Shown here piece after piece: positions 53,694 through 64,000 of a stretch of DNA of 64,000 nt (the stretch's first letter is position 1; every line of letters starts with the position of its first letter). The stretch is from NCBI RefSeq assembly GCF_017348835.2, contig NZ_CP071375.1; one strand, written 5' to 3'. The notes beneath the pieces were generated by a model. It was not told the origin of the DNA. It saw only the letters and a program-made list of their open reading frames with translations, and did not search any database. Source of the stretch: Escherichia coli (GTDB lineage: Bacteria > Pseudomonadota > Gammaproteobacteria > Enterobacterales > Enterobacteriaceae). The position numbers and the translations under genes are program-made.

Positions 53694-54045
53694 GGTTCAC
53701 CTCCAGTTCAGGTTTACGCGCTTTACGGGTACCTGATTTTATCAACACAATCCCGGCGACCAGGGTGGTTAACCCGGCAATTTTCATCAGCGATAAACTT
53801 TCGTCGAATAACAAAACGCTAAACAAGGTAATAAATAAAATACCGATACCTTCCCACAGCGCATAAGCCACACCTAAGGCTATTTTTTTAACAGCGAAAG
53901 AGAGAAATATATACGACAGAGAAATCATCACCAGCATTAAAATAAAGCCGCCATTTCCCTCACTGACGCTCGCCCATTTCATAGACAGCGTACCGGTAAT
54001 TTCTGTAGCAATAGCCAGACCTAATAAAATCCAATAAATATACAT
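53680..54045 (-). CDS. mdtJ: SMR-family spermidine exporter subunit MdtJ
   Basis: 121 aa, 4-TM; overlaps the mdtI start. Confidence 0.85.
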
Positions 54046-54456
54046 TGTCCTTCTCCTGCAAGAGAATTATTTTAATTTTCGCTTAATTCAGCGAAACCAA
54101 AGTAAAGTGGTCAAGCCCCGCGCTTAGCGCAAGCTTTGGCAGAAGAAAGGACTAAAGCGCGTTGCGCCAGTGCTGCTCACCTACGAGCAAGATAGTGGAT
54201 GAGGTACGAAGATGGGTAAATGTAGAAAATAACGTCCTGAACAAATTGTCCATAATATTACAATTATCCGCAGTGTTGCTTCTCGTCATCGCGGATGATA
54301 ATTGTCCTCGGTAGTTGAACACGCCTGATTTGTATCATAGCTTAAGAATTAACTCAAAATATTTTCACTTCTTTACCTGAGCGGTTTGATTTTCGTTATG
54401 ATGACGGAGCGAAAAAGACATTATTATTAGCAAAGGAAGAAAAAACGGGGACAAGC

Positions 54457-54621
54457 ATGGCAAAGCCGATCATCACGCTCAATGGCCTAAAAATCGTCAT
54501 TATGTTGGGAATGCTGGTCATTATTCTCTGCGGTATCCGTTTTGCCGCCGAGATCATCGTGCCGTTTATTCTCGCATTATTTATTGCTGTTATATATAAC
54601 TTATTTCACTTAACGCATTGA
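54457..54621 (+). pseudogene. tqsA: tqsA (AI-2 exporter) 5' fragment, truncated after codon 46 by an inserted element
   Basis: [46 protein letters not shown], then 8 unrelated codons and a stop; phage-like DNA follows. Confidence 0.8.
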
Positions 54622-55045
54622 TTTAATTAAATAATTTGCACCACAAAAAGTGCCAAAAATCGCAAAATGACTACACCAGTGACTACACCGTTCGGTGCAC
54701 CGTATGAAACAACGTGGAACAAATAGACACAAGAAATATACAGGCGGATCATCTTTCCAGGGGGAAGCGCACCAATTCATGAGGGGCGTTAATGTCGATA
54801 TGGGGATCCCCACCTACCGGAATTTTTTTCCGGTTAAACGTTAATCAGGCTGGTGGGCTTTACCTGTTCGGTAGGTGTTATGATTATCGTAATACCTTTC
54901 CCCCAATGGGGTAAAAGCATCAACCGTAACGAAAGTCGTTATGGTTGCCACCGATACCCCAAATTTGGGTATCACGAGTAAGCCCCAAAATCTGGGTGTT
55001 ACTCTTACTACCCAAACTACGGGTAGTTTCCGTAGTTTCATGGTC

Positions 55046-55065
55046 GAGTTGCAGATCTGCAACTC
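55046..55065. repeat. 20 bp perfect palindrome (gagttgcagatctgcaactc) within a repeat-rich stretch
   Basis: Read directly; neighbouring CCCAAA(N)GGGT-type repeats at 54957-55030. Confidence 0.6.
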
Positions 55066-55319
55066 CCCCATTAACCACAGGCGAATTTCCGCCTTCGGTC
55101 ATTCCTTAATCATCTGCGTAATCATAATGATTATTCAGCAAGCGCAATTTTGCGCTTTGCTTAAAGTTCAGCGAGTTACCGCGCCGACTTCCTCAAATTG
55201 AGGTTTCCGAAAATATCAGCGGGTTAGCGATTAAGCTGACCATTAATTAAACTGCGAAAATGTCGTAGTTGTGAGGGGTGTAGCCAACCCATTTTTGGGC
55301 CGTCGGGAATATCAACCAG

Positions 55320-55601
55320 TTACCGCCGCAACCGCTCCGGCTTCTTCCAGTGGTACGTTATTTTCTCCTTCTCCCGATACATCTCCACGCGGCGACGGTA
55401 GGCCAGCAACTCAAGAACTCTGGTTCGTATGTTGCGCATATCCACGGCATTAAGTTCTATACCATCACGGCGCATCACCTCCGCAACAACACGCGCATAA
55501 TTTTCAGCGGTCACGCTGTCCGGCTGCATGGCCTGTTCGTCAACCTGCTGGCTGATTCCGGCAACGCGGCGGATTAATCCCAGTATTTCGGCTTCTATCA
55601 T
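55320..55601 (-). CDS. Hypothetical protein (93 aa)
   Basis: ORF only. Confidence 0.3.
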   Translation of the reverse strand: MIEAEILGLIRRVAGISQQVDEQAMQPDSVTAENYARVVAEVMRRDGIELNAVDMRNIRTRVLELLAYRRRVEMYREKEKITYHWKKPERLRR

Positions 55602-55665
55602 TGTGCCCCCATCGTTCTGAAAGTCTGGTGTCGTCGGGTCCTTCCTGGAATTATGGCCCGTTACG

Positions 55666-55677
55666 GGGCGGCGACCT
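55666..55677 (+). other. Lambda-type cosN sequence GGGCGGCGACCT (plus orientation) with lambda-like cosB-type flank
   Basis: Exact 12-mer; downstream flank resembles the lambda left end as recalled (TTTATGAAAATTTT..., AAAAGAAACGACA). Confidence 0.7.
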
Positions 55678-55856
55678 CGCGGTTTTTATCTGTTTATGAA
55701 AATTTTTCTGGAAAAAGCATGTCGGTACTTCTCGAACATAACTATTTGTTTTTAAATAGATACACAATAAAAAGAAACGACACGGTAATCATCTAAAATG
55801 GCGATTTATGACGCTTTCATGTCGTTTCTCAGTTTTGTTCAATAATTGCGCGTCTG

Positions 55857-56369
55857 TTACTCGCCTTTCTTCTGTAGCAACTTTTCCGGTACGTTTCCGG
55901 TTGTTTCTTTCAAGTAATCAGCCAGTATCTGTGGGAGGTTGTCGGCAACTCTGGCACTGGCATTACAGGCTTTAACCACTTCCCTTTTAAGCCTATCCAG
56001 CATGGCGTGGGTAATCTGTGGGAAGCTCCTTTGCATAGTAAGCGGGAGGCTGTCCATGATTGATGAAATCTGACTCGCCAGCTTTGAAAGCGCGTACAGG
56101 CAAAACTCAGTATCAATCACGTCACCGCGATCGCGCTCGTTTTTAAGTTCCTGCGCCTCCGCCTGTGCTGTCAGTAATCTGATCCTGACTCGTAAGAGTT
56201 CATCATCATCAATATCGCCTTTGTCGTTTGTAAGCTGGCTAATTGCATTGTTAACCCTATTGTCTATCACGCTGGCAACATCGTAAAACGCCTCACGGCC
56301 TTTACGTTCAACGGGAGTCACTCCCCACTTGTCGAACGCTGTCGCACTTACACGGCAGCTTTTCGCCAT
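55857..56369 (-). CDS. Small-terminase (Nu1)-like protein with diverged N-terminal DNA-recognition region
   Basis: 170 aa; central/C-terminal region closely resembles NohA at 16716-17261 (LTAQAEAQELKNERD...); N-terminal ~45 aa diverged and shortened. Confidence 0.7.
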   Translation of the reverse strand: MAKSCRVSATAFDKWGVTPVERKGREAFYDVASVIDNRVNNAISQLTNDKGDIDDDELLRVRIRLLTAQAEAQELKNERDRGDVIDTEFCLYALSKLASQISSIMDSLPLTMQRSFPQITHAMLDRLKREVVKACNASARVADNLPQILADYLKETTGNVPEKLLQKKGE

Positions 56370-56399
56370 GTTTTTTTGTTCATCAGGTGCGATTTCATT

Positions 56400-56437
56400 A
56401 ATACACCAACTTAATTACTGCTTCAGGTTGGTGTATT
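56400..56437. repeat. 11 bp inverted repeat (AATACACCAAC N16 GTTGGTGTATT) between cos and the terS-like start
   Basis: Read directly; lies in the terS-like leader. Confidence 0.55.
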
Positions 56438-56531
56438 GTTTGCATCTTTCCCTTTTCATTCATAAAGATAGAGCAAACAACAAAACCACCACCACCCCCC
56501 TGAAAAGGCTCATAAATAGCGAAAAACCGCG

Positions 56532-56543
56532 AGGTCGCCGCCC
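56532..56543 (-). other. Second lambda-type cosN sequence (minus orientation), about 165 bp upstream of the terS-like gene
   Basis: Exact 12-mer AGGTCGCCGCCC on the plus strand; inverted relative to 55666-55677. Confidence 0.7.
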
Positions 56544-56604
56544 CGTAACGGGTCCATATGCCGGAAAGGTCCCGTAAAAAAAGCCGGATTTCTCCGGCCT
56601 TGTC

Positions 56605-57018
56605 TCAGATGGTTTTCAGTATGCGATCGATGTCGCCGTCATCGCCCTGGTTTCTGCCATCGTATGCCATGCCAGCTGATACGGCTTGCGGGCTGTGCAT
56701 GTCCATAAAGTTTTCAAAGGCTGCGGTAAGCTCTGGTGCAACCTTTGGGCGCTCCTGCTCTATGGTCATGTTCAGGATTTCACGAGCATTATCGACGCTA
56801 ATACATGGCACGTTTGCCATTGCACGTAACAGCGGCTGATAGTCTTTATGCTCATGAAGCGCCATAATCGCATCAGCGCGCGGCTTGTCCTGCTCTTCCA
56901 GTTTGTTTAGTTGATATACGGCCTCATAGGTTGATAAACCTCTGTCAGCCATTGCCCGCGCTTCGGCTTTAAATTTACTCGCCAGCGGTAGCGTCATGAT
57001 GCTTTCATTCGTTGCCAT
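56605..57018 (-). CDS. Hypothetical head-module protein (137 aa)
   Basis: ORF between the gpD-like and terS-like genes; no recognisable motif. Confidence 0.3.
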   Translation of the reverse strand: MATNESIMTLPLASKFKAEARAMADRGLSTYEAVYQLNKLEEQDKPRADAIMALHEHKDYQPLLRAMANVPCISVDNAREILNMTIEQERPKVAPELTAAFENFMDMHSPQAVSAGMAYDGRNQGDDGDIDRILKTI

Positions 57019-57030
57019 CGTTCCCCCTGC

Positions 57031-57430
57031 TTATCGGGCCAGCGGCTGAACGGATACGCCGGAACCCGCAAAGGCGGCGCATTTTTTCGCATCGGTGTCG
57101 ACGCTCTCAGGCCAGTTAACGGCGGCAATATTGAATATCCCCGTCTTGTAACACTGTGCTGATTTCTGCTTTGACGTGTCCACAGGATACGAAGTCAGAT
57201 AAACAGCCTTGCCAGATTCCTGACCATCCCACGGCTTAAACTCGCCATTGTCCGCCAGCATCAGCGGGGTAAATTCCTGAATAACGCCAGCATCAGCGGG
57301 GTAAATTCCTGAATAACGCCAGCATCAGCGGGGTAAATTCCTGAATAACGCCAGCATCAGCGGCAAAATGTACCAGCGTCGTGGCGACCTGCTGACTGCC
57401 TGCAAATAACTCAATGTATGGAGTGTCCAT
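57031..57430 (-). pseudogene. Lambda gpD-like head decoration gene disrupted by a 64 bp tandem duplication
   Basis: 5' part (MDTPYIELFAG...TPLML) and 3' part (ADNGEFKPWDG...YKTGIF...AFAG) resemble lambda gpD; frame is restored by removing two 32 bp repeat copies. Confidence 0.65.
57254..57363. repeat. Tandem repeat: 32 bp unit (gccagcatcagcggggtaaattcctgaataac) x3 plus a 14 bp partial copy
   Basis: Perfect copies at 57254-57285, 57286-57317, 57318-57349; partial at 57350-57363. Confidence 0.9.
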
Positions 57431-57441
57431 AGAATCCCCCG

Positions 57442-58497
57442 TTAAGCAATTTTGACAGTAACAAATTTGCGAATATCTGCCGGAACCGGCTGCGGTGCGC
57501 TGTGCGTCTGCACGTACTCAATCGCCGGATCTCCGTCCTCAATCCAGTTTTTCGGGTAGTACATGTTTTGCGTTGCCCCCGTTCTTACTGCGTCCTGATC
57601 CATAATCGCACCATAGGCCACCAGCCCTTTATTGTTGGTGTTGCCCAGGACAAGCAAATCAGGCTCAAGGAAATATTTTTCTGTGCCGTCGCTGTCAGTG
57701 TATTTGCCGGAATAGACGATAAGGGCCAGATCACCAAGATAGCCTTTAAAGCTCACCACTTCGCCCAGGTTTTTACATGCCAGCTCTGCGGCGGATTCTG
57801 AACCACGGGAGAGATCGTACAGTTCACGGAATTTTTTAAAGCTGCGTAACATGCGCCATACATCAACGCCCATAATCATGACGTTGGCGGGGCAACCTGC
57901 CTGATCTGCGTATAGTTCAATGTCATATATTGGGTCGTGTATGTCTTTATCCTGCTCAGACCATTTTTTACCGTCGGCCTGCTCTATGATGTTTTTTTCC
58001 GGTATCTTCCAGTCGATTTCATAGCGTTCTATGCCTTCGCCCTCAATGATGTTTTTTCCGGTCGTTACCGCATTCACCGCCAGCCATTCAACGTGTGCCT
58101 TAATGGCGTTTATCTGGCGGCGCATGTTGCCAGTAATCAGGCGCATACGGCGGTAGGTAGGATCGTTAAGCTGTGCCGGATCTTCTCCAGCCATGCGCAT
58201 TATTGTTTTTAATGGATCGATTTCGTGTTTTGGCTTCATGTAGCCAGGGCGGATAATGCTGGTTTCGTACCCTTTATCGCGCTGAACCTGGCTGCCAACC
58301 ATAGGCGAACAAAACGCCGACATAGTGACTTCTTCAATATCCAGGTTATCTAACATGATGTCCTGCGTGTTGAATGTCGCCACGTTCGGGAAAAACAGCG
58401 CGGTAAACAGCGGACTAAATTTAAATTCCGCAATATCCTCGCGATTCAGGTACGCGAAAAGCTGGTGTGTGTTAAGTGCTATTGCTTTGACTGCCAT
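57442..58497 (-). CDS. Major capsid protein, lambda gpE homologue
   Basis: 351 aa; shared blocks KFxPLF..LFF, PGYxKPKHE, DPxYRR, SxKGxxGDxAIVVYSG, YPKNW..GDPA, SAP with lambda gpE as recalled. Confidence 0.8.
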   Translation of the reverse strand: MAVKAIALNTHQLFAYLNREDIAEFKFSPLFTALFFPNVATFNTQDIMLDNLDIEEVTMSAFCSPMVGSQVQRDKGYETSIIRPGYMKPKHEIDPLKTIMRMAGEDPAQLNDPTYRRMRLITGNMRRQINAIKAHVEWLAVNAVTTGKNIIEGEGIERYEIDWKIPEKNIIEQADGKKWSEQDKDIHDPIYDIELYADQAGCPANVMIMGVDVWRMLRSFKKFRELYDLSRGSESAAELACKNLGEVVSFKGYLGDLALIVYSGKYTDSDGTEKYFLEPDLLVLGNTNNKGLVAYGAIMDQDAVRTGATQNMYYPKNWIEDGDPAIEYVQTHSAPQPVPADIRKFVTVKIA

Positions 58498-58736
58498 TAT
58501 TCGCCCCCATAATTTTTGTGCATCCCAAGCGCCGCAAGTAAATAAGATCGCACAAGTGAACCTATCGACGGCTCCGGCGTCATCAGCGGATCCAGTCCAG
58601 CCGCAACGCCAGCTTCATAGTTTTTTTTGTGGCGCTGCTTGAGCACCTCCACGATTTCGGGGCTTATGTACACCGAAACACCGCCTTTTTTCTCTTCAGC
58701 CATAGTAAGAAATTCCTCTTCGACTAAAAAAATCAT
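58497..58736 (-). CDS. Hypothetical protein
   Basis: ORF only; start may be an internal Met (MAEEKK). Confidence 0.3.
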   Translation of the reverse strand: MIFLVEEEFLTMAEEKKGGVSVYISPEIVEVLKQRHKKNYEAGVAAGLDPLMTPEPSIGSLVRSYLLAALGMHKNYGGE

Positions 58737-58954
58737 AACTGGATGTTTATCCAGTCCTGATTATAATCAGAATTGCATTTTATGCAATGATATTGAGTTA
58801 TGTTGCAAATTATGAAATGATTATCCCGATCACGAACGCCAGTGCATCCAAAAACCTCATATGCAAAAGCCCGATAAGAACCCTCTGACCTTATCGGGCT
58901 TTTTTTGGGCGCAAAAAAGCCGGATTGCTCCGGCTATGTGTGCTGTGTGCTGGC

Positions 58955-59179
58955 TCAGTCTCTGATCTCTTTCAGAAATTCTATCAATGCATCTATCTGT
59001 TCAGGATTTACCGCCAGCATTTCACCGGATAGAGCACATCTCACAAAACCATGCTGATCCTTTTCAATCAGTGCGCCCGTCTCCAGGAATGCGCGGTAAT
59101 CATTGATGCTCATCGTCTCCATGTTGTCAGCATGGTATTTATCACGCTGTTTTAATATCTCATCAAATTTCATCGGCAT
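58955..59179 (-). CDS. Hypothetical protein (74 aa)
   Basis: ORF only. Confidence 0.3.
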   Translation of the reverse strand: MPMKFDEILKQRDKYHADNMETMSINDYRAFLETGALIEKDQHGFVRCALSGEMLAVNPEQIDALIEFLKEIRD

Positions 59180-59305
59180 TGTTTTTTTCCTCTGTTGTGT
59201 CTGTTTGTTTCAGATAGTAACTATGCCTGACCGTGACGAAAACCCGGTAATGCGCCATACCGTTTCAACTGGTGCAAAAAAAGCCGTATTTCTCCGGCTG
59301 TTTGA

Positions 59306-59578
59306 TTAGCTGTCCTGGTAATTGCGCCATATTTCATCACCAGCACCATCTATACCCATTTCGGCATAAGTGCGATCGACTGCCTTTTTCAGGTCTCCGA
59401 AATTATCCGGCGGCTCCGGTGCCCTCTGTGCCTTCCTTGAACATTCCAGCCGTCGCATCGTGATGTGATGCCGTTCCTTGTCTGTCTCCACCAGCTGCAT
59501 GACTTCACCCCATCGCGCCGCCGCCCTCCGGTAAAAGCCTTTCGCCTCCAGTTCCTCCGCTATGCGGTCATGTACCAT
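59306..59578 (-). CDS. PerC-family transcriptional activator-like protein (Pch-like)
   Basis: MVHDRIAEELEAKGFYRRAAARWGEVM... resembles the PerC/Pch N-terminal signature from memory; start at the internal Met of the ORF. Confidence 0.6.
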   Translation of the reverse strand: MVHDRIAEELEAKGFYRRAAARWGEVMQLVETDKERHHITMRRLECSRKAQRAPEPPDNFGDLKKAVDRTYAEMGIDGAGDEIWRNYQDS

Positions 59579-59588
59579 CGTCACCCCC

Positions 59589-59999
59589 TCAGAACGAAAT
59601 ATCATCACCGTAAGGGTCATCGCCTCCCGCTGGTGGCTGATTACCCTGTGTGCCTGTGGTTTTGCGTCTGTTCCCGCCAGGAAGTGCCGCACGGGCACTG
59701 ATTACGCTGTCTGCAATAACCTGATAACCCTGCCGCGTTTCCCCATTCTGTCCGGTCCACTGGCTGACCTGCATCGTGCCGGATACGCTGGCAACGTCGC
59801 CTTTTTGATGTTTAGCCAGGAAGTCGGCCTGCTTACCAAATGCGATGACCGATAGCCATAACGTCGCCTGCCCATCCTGCGCCTGACTACATGGCAGCGA
59901 TACCGCCATACGCGCCAGCGTCATCGGTGTACCCTTGCTGGTCTGTTTTACCTGCTGGTCGTCCACCAGCCGCCCGTAAGCCGCTATCTGTGCTGTCAT
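59589..59999 (-). CDS. SSB-like single-stranded DNA-binding protein
   Basis: 136 aa with Gly/Pro-rich tail ending in the acidic DDISF (compare SSB DDIPF). Confidence 0.55.
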   Translation of the reverse strand: MTAQIAAYGRLVDDQQVKQTSKGTPMTLARMAVSLPCSQAQDGQATLWLSVIAFGKQADFLAKHQKGDVASVSGTMQVSQWTGQNGETRQGYQVIADSVISARAALPGGNRRKTTGTQGNQPPAGGDDPYGDDISF

Positions 60000-60304
60000 G
60001 CCGTCTGCTCTCCGGTTTTAACGTTGATGGTTGTTACCTGTTCCGCTTCGGCAATCTCCCGTTCTGTCAACGTGGCAAAGTTTGCCGCTGCTGTGGTCAT
60101 GAATGCGCTTATCAGTTCGGGATGCTCCTTCGCGTATCCTTCCCCCGCGTGGCGGTCTATCGTTCTGATTGCCACCTTTAAAGCCAGTTCAGCCATATCT
60201 AACGCCTTATATTTCGGCTCTGTTCTGTCTCTGCGTTTTTGGGTCATTTCTCGCAACCTCTCACTTTTTCGCCTCACTTTTTCAAGCGTCTCACTTCGTC
60301 GCAA
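59996..60304 (-). CDS. Hypothetical protein
   Basis: ORF overlaps the SSB-like start by 4 bp. Confidence 0.3.
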   Translation of the reverse strand: MRRSETLEKVRRKSERLREMTQKRRDRTEPKYKALDMAELALKVAIRTIDRHAGEGYAKEHPELISAFMTTAAANFATLTEREIAEAEQVTTINVKTGEQTA

Positions 60305-60447
60305 TTGGGATTTTTGGTTTTTCTATGTGTGTGTTTCATAAGTATTTTTTTACCCCTCACTTTTGAGGATGTATACAGGTAAAAAAGTGAGGGAGAGCAG
60401 GCTAATTTTGGCCCTCTTTCTATCCACCTCGCTTTTGCTCCTCACTT

Positions 60448-61854
60448 TTATAGCGGCGCTACATCATCCCCATCGATACGAATAACCCCATCTTTTTCCA
60501 GCTTGTACAGCCAGCGCCGGAAGTTTTTCATTTCATACCCCAGTTTTTTCATGTCATCACGTAACAGCGGGATCGTGCACTTGTCGCCGTTCTGTGTGCG
60601 TGAACGGATGCACCCCCATAGCGCGGTATGGTTTTCCGTCTTGTTCCCTGCCTCCTCGATGCGCTCCAGTTCTGCCGGTTCGCGTGGGATGTCAATCACC
60701 ACCATGGACACGATTTCTTCACCCTCAGGATCCGTAAATACCTCCACGCTCTTAAGGTCGTAGGCACTTTCTTTTGGCTCCTCCGCGTCCTTCATCTTCG
60801 TACATGCTGCAACCAGCGCCGTAGCCTCTGAATGTTCCCGACTGATTCGGAACTCAGCATCAAGCGCCGCACGGAATGCACTGGAACCCCGCGCCCCTTT
60901 CGTCTCATCCTTGCCGGAATGATGCACAACCAGAACCGTGGCCCCCGTGGCCTGCTTTATCGCGTCACACCCCTGGATAAACGCCCCCATGTCGCGGGAG
61001 TCATTTTCATCATGACCACCAAAGCAACGGGCCAGCGTGTCAATGACAATCATCCGCACCCTTTCGCCCGTTCTGTCCTGCACTAATCCGGCGGTCCTGA
61101 TAACCTGTTCCACATAGTCCGGCGATGCGGGGAATACTGGCGAATTGACGATACACAAATCAGTAACCGCCTTACCGTGGGTTATTTCCCATGCCTTAAC
61201 GCGGCGCTTTACGCCCATACTTCCTTCACCAGCAACATAGATAACCGCGCCTTTACACACCCTGCGGCCTCCCCATTTCATTCCAGTGGCAACATGACAC
61301 GCCCACGAAATGGCAAGGAACGACTTATAGGAACCGCTCGCCCCGTAGGTGCTGCATAATGCTTCCGCCGGAATAAGCCCCTTAATCACGTAGCTTTGCT
61401 GCGCGTCGAACCCTTCCGATCCCCATGAAATCGGTAGCGTGATTTTTTGTTTTCCTCCGTTCATGATCAGGCTTTCCCCTCTCTCCCATGTCTCCCGTAG
61501 CCGTGGAAGCTGGTCGGTCCATTTCTCCAGTAATTCGAAGTTTTCAGAAAGCAGCCGCGCTTCATGGACTCCGGCGATCGCCAGTTTTGTCGCTATGGTT
61601 AACAGCTGCGCTTCGTCAATATTTCCGGCGCGTATCACCGTTACCCTGTATCGCCCCTCATCAACAATCTGCAGGTTGTCCAGTTCGCTTAACTGATAAC
61701 GCCCCAGGTAAACGGGAGGCGTGGAGTCTCCCGCCTTTTTGGCCTGTGCAATGATGTAGTGCTCTGCAAATGAGTGCGCATCATTCCCCGCGAAAATAAT
61801 TGCTTCGGTGTGTTTGTCTTTCGGTAATAGTTTTACGTTCGGTGCCAGTTTCAT
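60448..61854 (-). CDS. RecA-fold AAA ATPase (RepA/DnaB-like replication protein)
   Basis: 468 aa; Walker A GASGSYKS; Walker-B-like MIVIDTL; C-terminal wHTH-like region. Confidence 0.7.
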   Translation of the reverse strand: MKLAPNVKLLPKDKHTEAIIFAGNDAHSFAEHYIIAQAKKAGDSTPPVYLGRYQLSELDNLQIVDEGRYRVTVIRAGNIDEAQLLTIATKLAIAGVHEARLLSENFELLEKWTDQLPRLRETWERGESLIMNGGKQKITLPISWGSEGFDAQQSYVIKGLIPAEALCSTYGASGSYKSFLAISWACHVATGMKWGGRRVCKGAVIYVAGEGSMGVKRRVKAWEITHGKAVTDLCIVNSPVFPASPDYVEQVIRTAGLVQDRTGERVRMIVIDTLARCFGGHDENDSRDMGAFIQGCDAIKQATGATVLVVHHSGKDETKGARGSSAFRAALDAEFRISREHSEATALVAACTKMKDAEEPKESAYDLKSVEVFTDPEGEEIVSMVVIDIPREPAELERIEEAGNKTENHTALWGCIRSRTQNGDKCTIPLLRDDMKKLGYEMKNFRRWLYKLEKDGVIRIDGDDVAPL

Positions 61855-62150
61855 TTTTTACCCCTGAATACGTTAAGCATCTTTTTTATTTCCTGAATAT
61901 TGGCGCGTGCTTTCTCCCTGCTGGTTGGAACGTTACGCGGTACAGCCTGCACCAGAGAAAAATCACGGTCGAACTGATAAACAGGCATCACGCAATCATA
62001 TTCGTAGCCTTCACGACGGTAGGTTACGCGCCGTTCCTCCACGCCCTTAATCATTACCGTGCCGCCGTACTGGTCGCGGTAAATATCACCGCGCATGAAT
62101 TTAGTGCGAGTTTTGCCACTGGCAGTTAAGCCAGAATATTTAAGTTTCAT
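61851..62150 (-). CDS. Hypothetical protein (99 aa), translationally coupled to the ATPase gene
   Basis: Stop overlaps the ATPase start (ATGA). Confidence 0.3.
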   Translation of the reverse strand: MKLKYSGLTASGKTRTKFMRGDIYRDQYGGTVMIKGVEERRVTYRREGYEYDCVMPVYQFDRDFSLVQAVPRNVPTSREKARANIQEIKKMLNVFRGKK

Positions 62151-62155
62151 TATTT

Positions 62156-62389
62156 TTATTCTCCGGTGTGCTGTTCTTTATATCTGTCGTGCAATAGATC
62201 TATTTCTTGCAGTTCCATTATTACATGCTCAAGAATCGTTATTAATGCCGTGGCAATTCTTGATTTTTGTTTGTCGCGTTCATTGTCGCCAAGTGTTTCA
62301 AGCCATATGCGCAATATTTCCAGCATGTTTTCACTGTGAGAAAGTGCAAGAAATGCGCGGTCTATTGTTTCGAGGTAAATATCACGCAT
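62156..62389 (-). CDS. Hypothetical small helical protein (77 aa)
   Basis: ORF; starts MRDI. Confidence 0.3.
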   Translation of the reverse strand: MRDIYLETIDRAFLALSHSENMLEILRIWLETLGDNERDKQKSRIATALITILEHVIMELQEIDLLHDRYKEQHTGE

Positions 62390-62390
62390 A

Positions 62391-62612
62391 TTAATCCCCG
62401 TCCGTTGTTTTTCTTAAAATAACTTCTGTCACGAAATCAGCATAGTTAGCGGCAATATCAAGAATATTTAGCCCTGTATCTCTGTGCTCATCAGTGCAAA
62501 GAAAGAAAAAAGCCACCCGCATAATTTCAGATATTGACGAAAGCGCATCAGCCGCATCATCAGGAACGCCGGAAAATTCTTGTTTCAGGGAATTAAAACG
62601 ATCATCACGCAT
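62391..62612 (-). CDS. Hypothetical small protein (73 aa from MRDD)
   Basis: ORF; possible paralogue of neighbours. Confidence 0.3.
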   Translation of the reverse strand: MRDDRFNSLKQEFSGVPDDAADALSSISEIMRVAFFFLCTDEHRDTGLNILDIAANYADFVTEVILRKTTDGD

Positions 62613-62877
62613 AACCCCCCCCATTTTCATAATCTGCAACAAGAATATTTTTAGCGTCATTCAGCGACCGCGTGGCGGTGTATCGGATACATTCCAGGGC
62701 GAACAATGTGTATTCCTCCCGTTCTTCCTTTTGTGCAAGCTCTGCCGTGCATTCAATATCAATAAGCGCGTGCATCAGCGTAGTGAGTGCGGCTGCGTCC
62801 GGACGGATGTTATTGCACATGGTGTACCCCTCCGCATTTTTTTTCGTTAGAAATAAGCGTTCTTCTTTCCTGTTCAT
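62605..62877 (-). CDS. Hypothetical small protein
   Basis: ORF; start uncertain. Confidence 0.25.
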   Translation of the reverse strand: MNRKEERLFLTKKNAEGYTMCNNIRPDAAALTTLMHALIDIECTAELAQKEEREEYTLFALECIRYTATRSLNDAKNILVADYENGGGYA

Positions 62878-63043
62878 CGCTCAGGAATACGCAGACCTCA
62901 CCGCTAAGGCGTTTAAGTAAGCCGATGATTGCCCCTGATTCGCTGTCGGTCATCATGCCAGGGTAATCCTCTGCCAGTGCGCAAATAACTTCGATTTGGT
63001 GGGCGCGTTCTGCTGCCTGTTGTAGTGTGATTTCCTGGCTCAT
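62810..63043 (-). CDS. Hypothetical small protein (77 aa from MSQEIT), first gene of the leftward operon
   Basis: ORF. Confidence 0.3.
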   Translation of the reverse strand: MSQEITLQQAAERAHQIEVICALAEDYPGMMTDSESGAIIGLLKRLSGEVCVFLSDEQERRTLISNEKKCGGVHHVQ

Positions 63044-63327
63044 AAGCCTACCCCCTGGCGAATACGGGCGGCGAATACAGCAACACAACCTGACGGGCAA
63101 CGGTTACGCGCTTCGCGTTCCGTCCAGGCGGTTACGTGGATTATTTGAGATTCTCCGGCACTCAGTGCCAGAAAACGCCACACAAAGGCCGTTTGTGTGT
63201 GTACAAGGTGTGGTATATGATTTACAGCAACCATAACGGCTCCTAGTTTACGTTGTTGGTTAGAAGCCCTGCGAGTGGTAACGACACTTGCGGGGCTTTG
63301 TCTTTTCATCGATTACCTTGATAAAGG

Positions 63328-63407
63328 TGTCAGCCACTATATTAGTAACGGGTGTCAGCCACGTCAATAGTGTTTTTCCGTTTTCTTGTGTGTATACTGT
63401 CAGCCAC
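63328..63407 (+). promoter_or_regulatory. Three direct repeats of TGTCAGCCAC with a TATACT -10-like hexamer: candidate operator/promoter
   Basis: Repeats at 63328-63337, 63353-63362 and 63398-63407; TATACT at 63392-63397. Confidence 0.55.
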
Positions 63408-63428
63408 CTAATAACGAGGAAATCAGAT

Positions 63429-63608
63429 ATGGCAACAAAAGCAGTTAATGCAAAATCCAAAAAGCTTGAGGCTCGAGTACCACACGCAATAGCTGATGCT
63501 GTAGAAAATTTAAAGGAAGATGGCGAAAGTACAGGGCAATTTATCGTTTCGGCACTTGAAGGCGAGATCAAACGCCGCCAGCGCCGCAAGGCCAAAGAAT
63601 CAGAATAA
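63429..63608 (+). CDS. Small basic DNA-binding-like protein (possible ribbon-helix-helix regulator)
   Basis: 59 aa from MATKAVNAKSKKLEARVPHAIADAVENLKEDGE... Confidence 0.45.
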   Translation: MATKAVNAKSKKLEARVPHAIADAVENLKEDGESTGQFIVSALEGEIKRRQRRKAKESE

Positions 63609-63650
63609 TCACTATCAGCGCCGTGGTGTGAGGTATTACGGCGCATTGCT

Positions 63651-63839
63651 ATGCAGGACAACACAATGACCGATAAAGAATTGACCAAAACATTATCACC
63701 GGCACGGAAAAGACGGCGCAGAAAGATAGAACATGAATCAGAAAGATTCGCGCCATGTGCTTTTGCCCTTGAGCAATTCCTTAAAGAGTACAGGGAAAAG
63801 CGCTCATTGCAGGTATGGCAACGAACTGAACCAGACTGA
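63651..63839 (+). CDS. Hypothetical small basic protein
   Basis: ORF with RRRRK stretch. Confidence 0.3.
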   Translation: MQDNTMTDKELTKTLSPARKRRRRKIEHESERFAPCAFALEQFLKEYREKRSLQVWQRTEPD

Positions 63840-63935
63840 TTGCATTGCCCACCAGCCTGATAGCGGCTATCATCCCCGTGCTTATGTTTGGGATCACACA
63901 CACAAACGGCGCAGCGGGTTATCTGTTCAGAAAGG

Positions 63936-63962
63936 CGGCTCCATTTCGGGGCCGCTTTTTTT
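63936..63962 (+). terminator. Rho-independent terminator
   Basis: cggctcc atttc ggggccg stem followed by T7. Confidence 0.55.
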
Positions 63963-64000
63963 ATGCCTGAAAAACCCCAATTTTGTGGTTTTCCAGTCTC

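What the first reader, a model, noticed from the sequence alone, without database searches (positions are those of the whole stretch)
61851..63100. Tightly packed array of five small ORFs at the start of the leftward operon, several possibly paralogous
Five 70-100 codon ORFs are chained with overlapping or adjacent stop/start codons between the divergent regulatory region and the replication ATPase. Two begin MRD, and three share a loose motif (PDAAAL / DAADAL followed by helical I/L-rich segments). Such early-operon arrays in phages and satellites often hold anti-defence, host-takeover or excision-control genes; none is recognisable here.
Basis: inference. Interest (0 to 1): 0.5.

Follow-up and report, generated by a model that had tools for sequence, protein, structure and literature searches.

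The report
Small-gene array of an E. coli PICI
The five small genes are real but not paralogous: they are the standard early-operon gene string of a known type of E. coli phage satellite (an EcCICFT073-type PICI), the last one is the already studied virulence regulator RgdR, and two of the others are joined or split in different strains by a run of G's that varies in length.

Summary
The ORF chain is real. All five ORFs have Shine-Dalgarno sites, overlapping or abutting stop/start codons, and dN/dS of 0.18-0.38 against about 1 in off-frame controls. It is the early operon of an 11.5-kb EcCICFT073/ED1a-type phage-inducible chromosomal island inserted in tqsA. The prototype EcCICFT073 carries the same icd-ORF1-ORF2-ORF3-ORF4-rgdR-replicase string.

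ORF5 is recognisable. It is an RgdR orthologue (Pfam DUF4222, 93% identical to O157 Sakai ECs1581, RGD motif intact), a published activator of LEE/type III secretion. ORF1-4 match only PHROG families of unknown function and are predicted to be helical.

Paralogy is not supported: no excess in Smith-Waterman scores over shuffles, and hhalign probabilities of 1.3% or less. The shared "MRD" starts come from a reused junction cassette, ATGCGTGA(T).

One new point: the ORF2/ORF3 junction is a poly-G tract, the only G/C run of 7 or more in the 64-kb window. Among 86 related islands it is G7 (23), G8 (38), G9 (19), G10 (4) or G11 (2). G7 and G10 fuse ORF2 and ORF3 into a 142-154 aa protein, fixed in O157:H7. 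G8, as here and in CFT073, keeps them separate. An A8/A7 tract does the same at ORF1/ORF2.

The function of ORF1-4 remains unknown. Overall this is an ordinary member of a known element.

The parts
63040..63234 (-). Icd-like small gene (64 aa), first member of the chained string. Its stop overlaps the ORF1 start (ATGA).
   Evidence: NCBIfam NF033153, E 5e-18. 98% identical to Sakai ECs1577. dN/dS 0.38.
62810..63043 (-). ORF1 (77 aa), an optional cassette of unknown function.
   Evidence: phrog_1478, E 3e-28. 100% identical over 74 aa to the EcCICFT073 homologue and 52% to Sakai ECs1579. Present in 19 of 86 related loci. SD -10.7 kcal/mol. No Pfam hit.
62837..62844 (-). A8 tract near the 3' end of ORF1. 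A7 would fuse ORF1 to ORF2.
   Evidence: Among related loci, A8 in 17 and A7 in 2. Natural 217-221 aa ORF1-2-3 fusion proteins exist, for example P0107 on 52 contigs.
62605..62820 (-). ORF2 (71 aa), predicted helical hairpin, unknown function.
   Evidence: phrog_5146 and the N-terminal half of phrog_2512. dN/dS 0.35. SD GGAGGGG, -10.0 kcal/mol. Occurs without ORF3 in a divergent relative, L088.
62615..62622 (-). G8 tract (C8 on the + strand), 2 nt upstream of the ORF3 ATG. It encodes the Gly-rich C-terminal tail of ORF2 and acts as the SD-like element of ORF3. Its length differs between lineages.
   Evidence: The only G/C homopolymer of 7 or more in the 64-kb window. G7 23, G8 38, G9 19, G10 4, G11 2 in 86 loci. 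Anti-SD pairing -11.1 kcal/mol. A 5.4-kb island otherwise identical to L004 differs only by G8 versus G7.
62391..62612 (-). ORF3 (73 aa), predicted short helix plus helical hairpin, unknown function. Fused to ORF2 in G7 and G10 lineages.
   Evidence: phrog_24341, E 2e-42, and the C-terminal half of phrog_2512. dN/dS 0.31. Occurs without ORF2 in L089. AF2 model of the fusion has mean pLDDT 63.6.
62156..62389 (-). ORF4 (77 aa), an optional cassette of unknown function.
   Evidence: phrog_2196, E 1e-38. 86% identical to the EcCICFT073 homologue. 26% identical to Sakai ECs1580, E 5e-8. tblastn hit in 69 of 86 loci. dN/dS 0.30. No Pfam hit.
61851..62150 (-). ORF5 = rgdR orthologue (99 aa, DUF4222). 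Its stop overlaps the replicase start (ATGA).
   Evidence: Pfam PF13973, E 6.8e-24. 93% identical to ECs1581 and 86% to CFT073 C1493, with R20-G21-D22 intact. ATGA overlap with the replicase gene in 75 of 77 loci. AF2 core pLDDT about 90, SH3/Tudor-like barrel.
60448..61854 (-). RepA-family helicase (468 aa), the replicase of the island, immediately downstream of the array.
   Evidence: RefSeq annotation. phrog_2850, E 1.6e-190, and primase/helicase PHROGs.
63263..63407 (-). Upstream control region: a promoter-like site (63339-63367) bracketed by three GTGGCTGACA repeats, then a conserved 15-bp-stem hairpin (63263-63299) ahead of icd.

Best explanation
**What it is.** The array is the conserved early-operon gene string of an EcCICFT073/ED1a-type phage-inducible chromosomal island (PICI) integrated in tqsA. 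The order is icd-like, ORF1, ORF2, ORF3, ORF4, rgdR, then the replicase.

**Shown:**
- All the ORFs are genuine protein-coding genes under purifying selection. They are unrelated to one another.
- They are joined by short reused junction cassettes: an SD, then an ATG, with the upstream stop inside or next to the first codons of the next gene.
- ORF5 is the orthologue of RgdR.
- ORF1 and ORF4 are optional cassettes. ORF2 and ORF3 alleles reassort freely across their conserved junction.
- That junction is a poly-G tract whose length differs between lineages. G8 and G11 give two overlapping genes. G7 and G10 give one fused 142-154 aa protein. G9 gives an ORF2 with a longer tail.

**Inferred:**
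- After the helper phage induces AlpA, the string is transcribed as one mRNA. This was shown only for EcCICFT073 reporter fusions (PMC6092414).
- Ribosomes pass from gene to gene by termination-reinitiation. This would deliver a set of small helical binder proteins and RgdR just ahead of the replicase.
- RgdR is a basic SH3/Tudor-like barrel plus a C-terminal helix. It binds DNA non-specifically (PMC3378721). It probably also contacts a protein partner, either RNA polymerase or the conserved N-terminal domain of the replicase. On this view its effects on LEE1 and motility are side effects of a role in the PICI life cycle.
- ORF2 and ORF3 probably act together, because stable natural fusions exist.
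- The targets of ORF1-4 are unknown.
For: **Island identity.** The window is a 100% match to E. coli PE164. The annotated context is int, AlpA-type HTH, icd-like, four hypothetical genes, DUF4222, RepA helicase, SSB, PerC, major capsid, decoration protein and TerS, lying between the two halves of tqsA. EcCICFT073 has the same six-gene string with A8 and G8. The ED1a relative sits at the same ydgD-ydgG site (PMC3378721).

**Coding.** dN/dS 0.18-0.38 against off-frame controls of 0.84-1.55. SD sites at every annotated start. Exact proteins found on hundreds to 1000 or more contigs.

**RgdR.**. Published function.

**No paralogy.**

**Junction cassettes.**

**Cassette behaviour.** Architectures. 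ORF2 alone in L088 and ORF3 alone in L089. Ten of 12 allele-class combinations are present.

**Poly-G polymorphism.**. The fused form is fixed in O157:H7.

**Structure.**
Against: - No direct evidence here for transcription or translation of ORF1-4, for translational coupling, or for any activity.
- The AF2 model of ORF2-ORF3 is of low confidence (mean pLDDT 63.6, pTM 0.42), so the helical-hairpin and 'act together' inferences are weak.
- Free reassortment of ORF2 and ORF3 alleles, and the occurrence of each without the other, argue against an obligate co-adapted pair.
- The 82 IMG/VR loci were found with a pattern that requires the junction sequence, so junction conservation and ORF2-ORF3 adjacency are partly due to how the loci were collected.
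Confidence: 0.78

Rival explanations
1. The ORFs are a partly paralogous family of early genes that act in anti-defence, host takeover or excision control.
For: The position is right for such genes: the early operon of a satellite, ahead of the replicase. An Icd-like (cell-division-inhibitor family) gene heads the string. ORF1 and ORF4 are optional and ORF2/ORF3 are highly allelic, as expected for genes in an arms race. ORF1-4 were not among the EcCICFT073 genes tested for lambda interference, because only genes downstream of ori were cloned.
Against: Paralogy was tested and not found. There are no hits to defence-related, NCBIfam or Pfam models. ORF5 has a different, documented activity. dN/dS of 0.3-0.4 indicates purifying rather than diversifying selection overall. 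No anti-defence profile library was available.
Confidence: 0.2
2. ORF2 and ORF3 (and possibly ORF1) are pieces of a single gene that is broken in this window by a homopolymer frameshift. The break would be either a sequencing error in the PE164 assembly or a pseudogene.
For: Deleting one G gives a 142-aa protein that matches the 154-position profile phrog_2512 over profile positions 1-145. Many natural fused proteins of 144-150 aa exist. PGAP labels a G9 copy 'frameshifted'. The PE164 record has other genes marked as frameshifted.
Against: G8 split genes are also present in CFT073, in 38 of 86 loci, in 7 closed genomes sharing one haplotype, and as exact proteins on 907 to 1000 or more contigs. 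Each half keeps its own SD and ATG, even in fused forms. Both halves show dN/dS of about 0.3. Each half occurs alone in divergent relatives, with an ordinary GGAGG junction. At least one of the other PE164 frameshifts is a 32-nt tandem repeat expansion, not a homopolymer error.
Confidence: 0.08
3. The poly-G tract (and the poly-A tract) is a functional switch. It would work either by reversible phase variation or by transcriptional or ribosomal slippage, letting one island make both separate and fused ORF1/2/3 products.
For: Tract lengths of G7 to G11 occupy all three reading frames. Three of nine groups with identical 600-nt flanks differ in tract length. Two islands identical over 5406 nt differ only by one G, and both states are common (907 versus 933 contigs). 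This is the only long G/C run in the 64-kb window. A run of G's allows perfect tRNA-Gly re-pairing in either direction (inference).
Against: The tract is stable within a clone. The top 15 of 60 evenly spaced ranks among 918 hits, mostly O157:H7, are all 100% identical to the G7 query, and the next is O55:H7 with G8. The length distribution is unimodal around G8 with no frame preference, as expected for neutral drift. No gene is switched off in any state. There are no within-strain data.
Confidence: 0.13
4. The ORFs are chance open frames in non-coding or regulatory DNA.
For: Four of the five have no annotated function or Pfam domain.
Against: dN/dS is well below 1 in frame and about 1 off frame. 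There are SD sites at every start, strong PHROG family matches, and conservation across hundreds of genomes.
Confidence: 0.01

Closest known systems
EcCICFT073 (prototype Gram-negative PICI), early region from icd to C1493 to pri
   Same: Same gene order and the same junctions, including A8 and G8. ORF1 is 100% identical, ORF2 77%, ORF3 79%, ORF4 86% and RgdR 86%. The downstream modules are also shared: SSB, PerC, lambda-E-like capsid, decoration protein.
   Different: Different attachment site (tqsA here, the roxA-phoQ region in CFT073). A RepA-type helicase (468 aa) replaces the 584-aa primase. The icd allele is only 49% identical. The operator-like repeats differ. The decoration gene here is disrupted.
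RgdR (ECs1581, O-island 51 / Sp7 of E. coli O157:H7)
   Same: ORF5 has 99 aa, is 93% identical, has an intact RGD motif and a DUF4222 domain, and sits directly upstream of the replicase with an ATGA overlap.
   Different: Sp7 is a capsid-forming PICI with a 710-aa primase. Between icd and rgdR it carries other cassettes (ECs1578-1580), with no ORF2 or ORF3. The activity of this allele is untested.
Satellite phage P4 left (early) operon: small genes ahead of the alpha primase-helicase, including the helper derepressor epsilon
   Same: A string of small early genes immediately upstream of the replicase of a satellite, with a P4-type integrase and an AlpA/Vis-type regulator nearby (own knowledge; PMC6092414 discusses the P4 comparison).
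   Different: No sequence similarity was found for ORF1-5. PICI genes are reported as exclusive to PICIs (PMC6092414). No helper-derepression function is shown here.
Simple-sequence contingency loci (poly-G/C tracts in Campylobacter, Neisseria, Haemophilus)
   Same: A homopolymer inside coding sequence whose length differs among strains and changes the reading frame.
   Different: No ON/OFF outcome: every length still leaves both coding units intact. The tract is stable within the O157:H7 clone. E. coli has intact mismatch repair and no known SSR phase-variation system of this kind (own knowledge).

Membership tests
RgdR / DUF4222 | Match to Pfam PF13973 (DUF4222) | tested here: met
   E 6.8e-24, residues 17-68.
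RgdR / DUF4222 | Full-length orthology to ECs1581 with the R20-G21-D22 motif required for activity | tested here: met
   93% identity over 99 aa, with MRGDI at residues 19-23. The requirement for the motif is from PMC3378721 / PMC10877973.
RgdR / DUF4222 | Activates LEE1/T3S and represses motility | not testable with these tools
   Needs a reporter or complementation assay.
EcCICFT073-type Gram-negative PICI | int followed by alpA and the remaining genes on one strand, own replicase, about 10-15 kb, specific att site | tested here: met
   RefSeq context in L001: int, 62-aa HTH regulator (homologues in related islands carry Pfam Phage_AlpA), operon on the same strand, RepA helicase. About 11.5 kb between the two tqsA fragments. 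Same site as the ED1a element.
EcCICFT073-type Gram-negative PICI | Induction by a helper phage via AlpA, replication, packaging and transfer | not testable with these tools
   Shown for EcCICFT073 only (PMC6092414). This copy has a disrupted decoration gene and a TerS-like gene annotated as frameshifted.
   Among the five ORFs the largest SW z-score is 1.8. hhalign probabilities are 1.3% or less for all 15 pairs, including icd.
Phase-variable contingency locus | Homopolymer in coding DNA whose length polymorphism shifts the frame | tested here: met
   G7 to G11 in 86 loci. G8 versus G7 on otherwise identical 5.4-kb islands.
Phase-variable contingency locus | Frequent reversible switching within a clone, giving ON/OFF expression | tested here: not met
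   Consensus assemblies of the O157:H7 clone are uniformly G7 in the sampled ranks. Both coding units stay intact in all states. Within-culture heterogeneity could not be measured.
Known anti-phage defence proteins (PADLOC) | Match to a defence-system model | tested here: not met
   0 families at E of 0.1 or less for icd, ORF1, the ORF2-3 fusion, ORF4, ORF5, RepA and YlcI.
Anti-defence / helper-interference proteins | Inhibits a defence system or helper phage reproduction | not testable with these tools
   No anti-defence profile library was available. ORF1-4 were not among the EcCICFT073 genes screened against lambda.

The most novel reading that the evidence does not exclude
The homopolymer tracts at the cassette junctions (G7-G11 between ORF2 and ORF3, A7/A8 between ORF1 and ORF2) may be more than tolerated mutational hotspots. 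They could be a working switch, by slipped-strand phase variation or by transcriptional or ribosomal slippage. Such a switch would let a PICI toggle or mix separate and covalently fused versions of its small early proteins, and so change how it deals with helper phages or the host.
Probability: 0.12. Interest if true: 0.6.

Novelty: new member of a known kind. Interest (0 to 1): 0.3.

Why it matters
The main value is clarification. The region is the standard early operon of a well-known E. coli phage satellite family, and one of its 'unknown' genes is RgdR, a regulator of EHEC type III secretion.

Three by-products could guide experiments.

1. ORF1-4 are conserved, PICI-specific, cassette-like genes. 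Nobody appears to have tested them, including in the prototype EcCICFT073.
2. The ORF2/ORF3 gene pair is naturally fused in some major lineages (O157:H7, O111) and split in others (CFT073, Nissle 1917, O103:H2) by a single-base change in a poly-G tract. This is a ready-made natural experiment and a caution for annotation, because PGAP calls some copies pseudogenes.
3. RgdR is predicted to be an SH3/Tudor-like barrel that is almost always translationally coupled to the replicase. That suggests its virulence-gene effects may derive from a replication or RNA polymerase-contact role.

Tried and rejected
- **Rfam.** A scan of 54000-64000 at E of 1 or less found nothing, including no C4/IsrK-type RNA upstream of icd.
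- **Profile libraries.** No PADLOC hit for any of the seven proteins searched. NCBIfam: no hit for ORF1-5. Pfam: no hit for ORF1, the ORF2-3 fusion alignment or ORF4.
- **PDB sequence search.** The RgdR and ORF2-3 profiles gave only chance-level hits, E 0.12 or higher.
- **Foldseek of the ORF2-3 model against PDB.** The model is of low confidence, and nothing scored below E 2.6.
- **AFDB50 search with the RgdR model.** Only other DUF4222 proteins of Enterobacterales were returned.
- **Phage genome collection.** No DNA match to the array. tblastn with RgdR found only one weak hit.
- **Search of 1.84 billion representative proteins with the ORF2-3 profile.** Only 51 clusters were found, so this is a narrow family.
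- **Apparent Icd-ORF1 fusions.** The 153-155 aa 'Icd-like' members of ORF1's 90% cluster looked like such fusions. On inspection they are N-terminally extended Icd-like calls with no ORF1 sequence, so the idea was rejected.
- **icd versus ORF4.** The Smith-Waterman z-score was 3.9, but the profile comparison did not support it (0.3%).
- **Replicase type.** It shows no association with cassette content or with G-tract length.
- **Literature.** Searches for the ORF1-4 locus tags, and for PICI together with 'homopolymeric tract', found nothing relevant.
Full report
**1. What is there**

On the minus strand between 63234 and 60448 lies an uninterrupted chain of genes:
- an Icd-like gene (63040-63234, 64 aa);
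- ORF1 (62810-63043, 77 aa);
- ORF2 (62605-62820, 71 aa);
- ORF3 (62391-62612, 73 aa);
- ORF4 (62156-62389, 77 aa);
- ORF5 (61851-62150, 99 aa);
- a 468-aa RepA-family helicase (60448-61854).

The junctions are ATGA, an 11-nt overlap (ATGTGCAATAA), an 8-nt overlap (ATGCGTGA), a 1-nt spacer, a 5-nt spacer, and ATGA. Each of these starts has an SD-like site, with -6.2 to -11.1 kcal/mol of pairing to the anti-SD against a regional background of -3.0 +/- 2.9.

**2. Are they genes?**

A pattern search for the ORF2/ORF3 junction in IMG/VR returned 82 loci. With four loci taken from complete genomes this makes 86.
- Pairwise Nei-Gojobori dN/dS medians are 0.38 (icd), 0.18 (ORF1, few pairs), 0.35 (ORF2), 0.31 (ORF3), 0.30 (ORF4) and 0.38 (ORF5).
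- The same alignments read in the two other frames give 0.84-1.55.
- The exact proteins of the window occur on 31 to 1000 or more contigs in the public collection.

The ORFs are therefore real coding genes.

**3. What element is this?**

The window's 3' end is 100% identical to E. coli PE164. The annotated context is tqsA', TerS-like, decoration protein, major capsid, PerC, SSB, RepA helicase, DUF4222, four hypothetical genes, Icd-like, [ylcI/ynfO on the other strand], HTH regulator, integrase, then 'tqsA. This is an 11.5-kb island in tqsA (ydgG).
- That is the layout of the Gram-negative PICIs described by Fillol-Salom et al. 2018 (PMC6092414).
- The insertion site is that of the ED1a relative in Flockhart et al. 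2012 (PMC3378721).
- The prototype EcCICFT073 carries the identical string, with ORF1 100%, ORF2 77%, ORF3 79%, ORF4 86% and ORF5 86% identical, and the same A8 and G8 tracts.
- The O157 Sakai cf-PICI Sp7 has the same frame (icd, three small ORFs, ECs1581, primase) but partly different cassettes.

**4. ORF5 is RgdR**

- ORF5 matches Pfam DUF4222 with E 6.8e-24.
- It is 93% identical over all 99 residues to ECs1581, with R20-G21-D22 intact.
- RgdR activates LEE1 and so type III secretion, represses motility, and binds DNA without apparent specificity. An R20C variant is inactive.
- In 75 of 77 loci its stop overlaps the replicase ATG. This holds whether the replicase is the roughly 467-aa RepA type or the roughly 584-aa primase type. 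The same is true for a 108-aa DUF4222 gene ahead of a DUF927 primase in a divergent relative.
- An AF2 model (core pLDDT about 90) is a five-stranded SH3/Tudor-like barrel followed by a basic helix.

**5. ORF1-4**

Each matches a PHROG family of unknown function. None matches Pfam, NCBIfam, PADLOC or PDB. No paper testing them was found. The lambda-interference screen of EcCICFT073 covered only genes downstream of ori.
- ORF1 is present in 19 of 86 loci. tblastn finds ORF4 in 69 of 86 loci.
- The ORF2-ORF3 profile finds only 51 clusters among 1.84 billion representative proteins.

**6. Paralogy**

Smith-Waterman scores against 300 shuffles give no signal among the five ORFs (largest z is 1.8). 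hhalign between family profiles gives probabilities of 1.3% or less for all pairs. The ORF3-ORF4 'alignment' is just residues 1-3, MRD.

The MRD starts are explained by the junction cassette. In ATGCGTGA(T) the upstream gene's TGA lies across codons 2-3 (CGT GAT) of the downstream gene. The same cassette precedes ORF3 and, in most relatives, ORF4. Likewise, the conserved C-terminal tails (...V.HA...TGE) are encoded by the SD-containing junctions.

**7. The poly-G junction**

phrog_2512 (154 positions) matches ORF2 with its N-terminal half and ORF3 with its C-terminal half. Removing one G from the G8 run (62615-62622) gives a 142-aa fusion that covers profile positions 1-145.
- Natural fused proteins of 144-150 aa are abundant. 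Their junctions read ENGG-VMRDD (G7) or ENGGG-VMRDD (G10).
- In 86 loci the run is G7 (23), G8 (38), G9 (19), G10 (4) or G11 (2).
- Three of nine groups with identical 600-nt flanks differ in run length.
- An O121 island (G8) and another island (G7) are identical over 5406 nt except for that one G.
- Among closed genomes with that haplotype, 7 are G8 and 5 are G7. The corresponding exact proteins are on 907 and 933 contigs.
- The split state is not an assembly artefact. It is found in CFT073 and in many independent assemblies.
- The tract is not a fast switch at the level of consensus genomes. In the O157:H7 clone the sampled ranks are uniformly G7 (154-aa fusion), with O55:H7 at G8.
- This run is the only G/C homopolymer of 7 or more in the 64-kb window. 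It gives the strongest anti-SD pairing of all the starts.
- In divergent relatives the equivalent junction is an ordinary GGAGGTGGGG or GGAGGT SD. There, ORF2 occurs without ORF3 and ORF3 without ORF2.
- ORF2 and ORF3 allele classes reassort: 10 of 12 combinations are present.
- An A8 tract (62837-62844) plays the same role at the ORF1/ORF2 junction. A7 occurs in 2 of 19 loci, and 217-221 aa triple fusions exist.

My reading is that ORF2 and ORF3 are two autonomous cassettes. Their SD has become a slippery G run whose length drifts between lineages. Separate, tail-extended and fused products are all tolerated. The stable fusions suggest, but do not prove, that the two proteins act together.

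The AF2 model of the fusion is all-helical (hairpin, Gly linker, short helix plus hairpin) but of low confidence (pLDDT 63.6, pTM 0.42). Its fold search was uninformative.

**8. Verdict**

- The satellite early-operon context is correct.
- The paralogy idea is not supported.
- 'None is recognisable' is wrong for ORF5.
- The array is an ordinary member of a known element family.
- The lineage-variable homopolymer fusions and the untested status of ORF1-4 are the only points of modest novelty.

Noticed in passing
window 63328-63407 (- strand): Three exact copies of GTGGCTGACA bracket a promoter-like site (TTGACG-17-TAATAT, 63339-63367), in the intergenic region between the divergent ylcI/ynfO-family gene and icd. 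At the same positions EcCICFT073 has GTGGGCCACAC repeats and Sakai Sp7 has GTGGTCACCT repeats. These look like operator sites whose specificity differs between PICIs.
   Followed up: partly
window 63263-63299: A 15-bp-stem hairpin (AAAGCCCCGCAAGTGTCGTTACCACTCGCAGGGCTTC) lies between that promoter-like site and the icd SD. It is almost identical in EcCICFT073 and Sakai Sp7 even though the flanking sequences differ. There is no Rfam match, and on the + strand it resembles an intrinsic terminator. Its function is unknown.
   Followed up: partly
window 57253-57363: The island's head-decoration gene contains a perfect 32-nt tandem repeat of 3.5 copies, 64 nt more than in EcCICFT073. This shifts the frame, so the 'frameshifted' annotation here is a repeat expansion and not a homopolymer error.
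   Followed up: yes
window 60448-61854 and related loci: The replicases downstream of rgdR are of different types (RepA-like, about 467 aa; primases of about 584 and 710 aa), yet they share a homologous N-terminal region of about 130 aa (46% identity). All of them start at an ATGA overlap with rgdR.
   Followed up: partly
L002 (E. coli O111:NM FWSEC0005) 2391-2836: PGAP annotates a G9 copy of the ORF2-ORF3 pair as a single 'frameshifted' pseudogene, whereas G8 copies are annotated as two genes and G7 copies as one gene. Annotation of this locus is therefore inconsistent across RefSeq.
   Followed up: yes
window 59306-59578 region (PerC-family gene; L001 11607-11879): The island carries a PerC/Pch-family regulator gene in addition to rgdR. 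It therefore encodes two families of regulators that have been linked to LEE expression in EHEC (PMC6092414).
   Followed up: no
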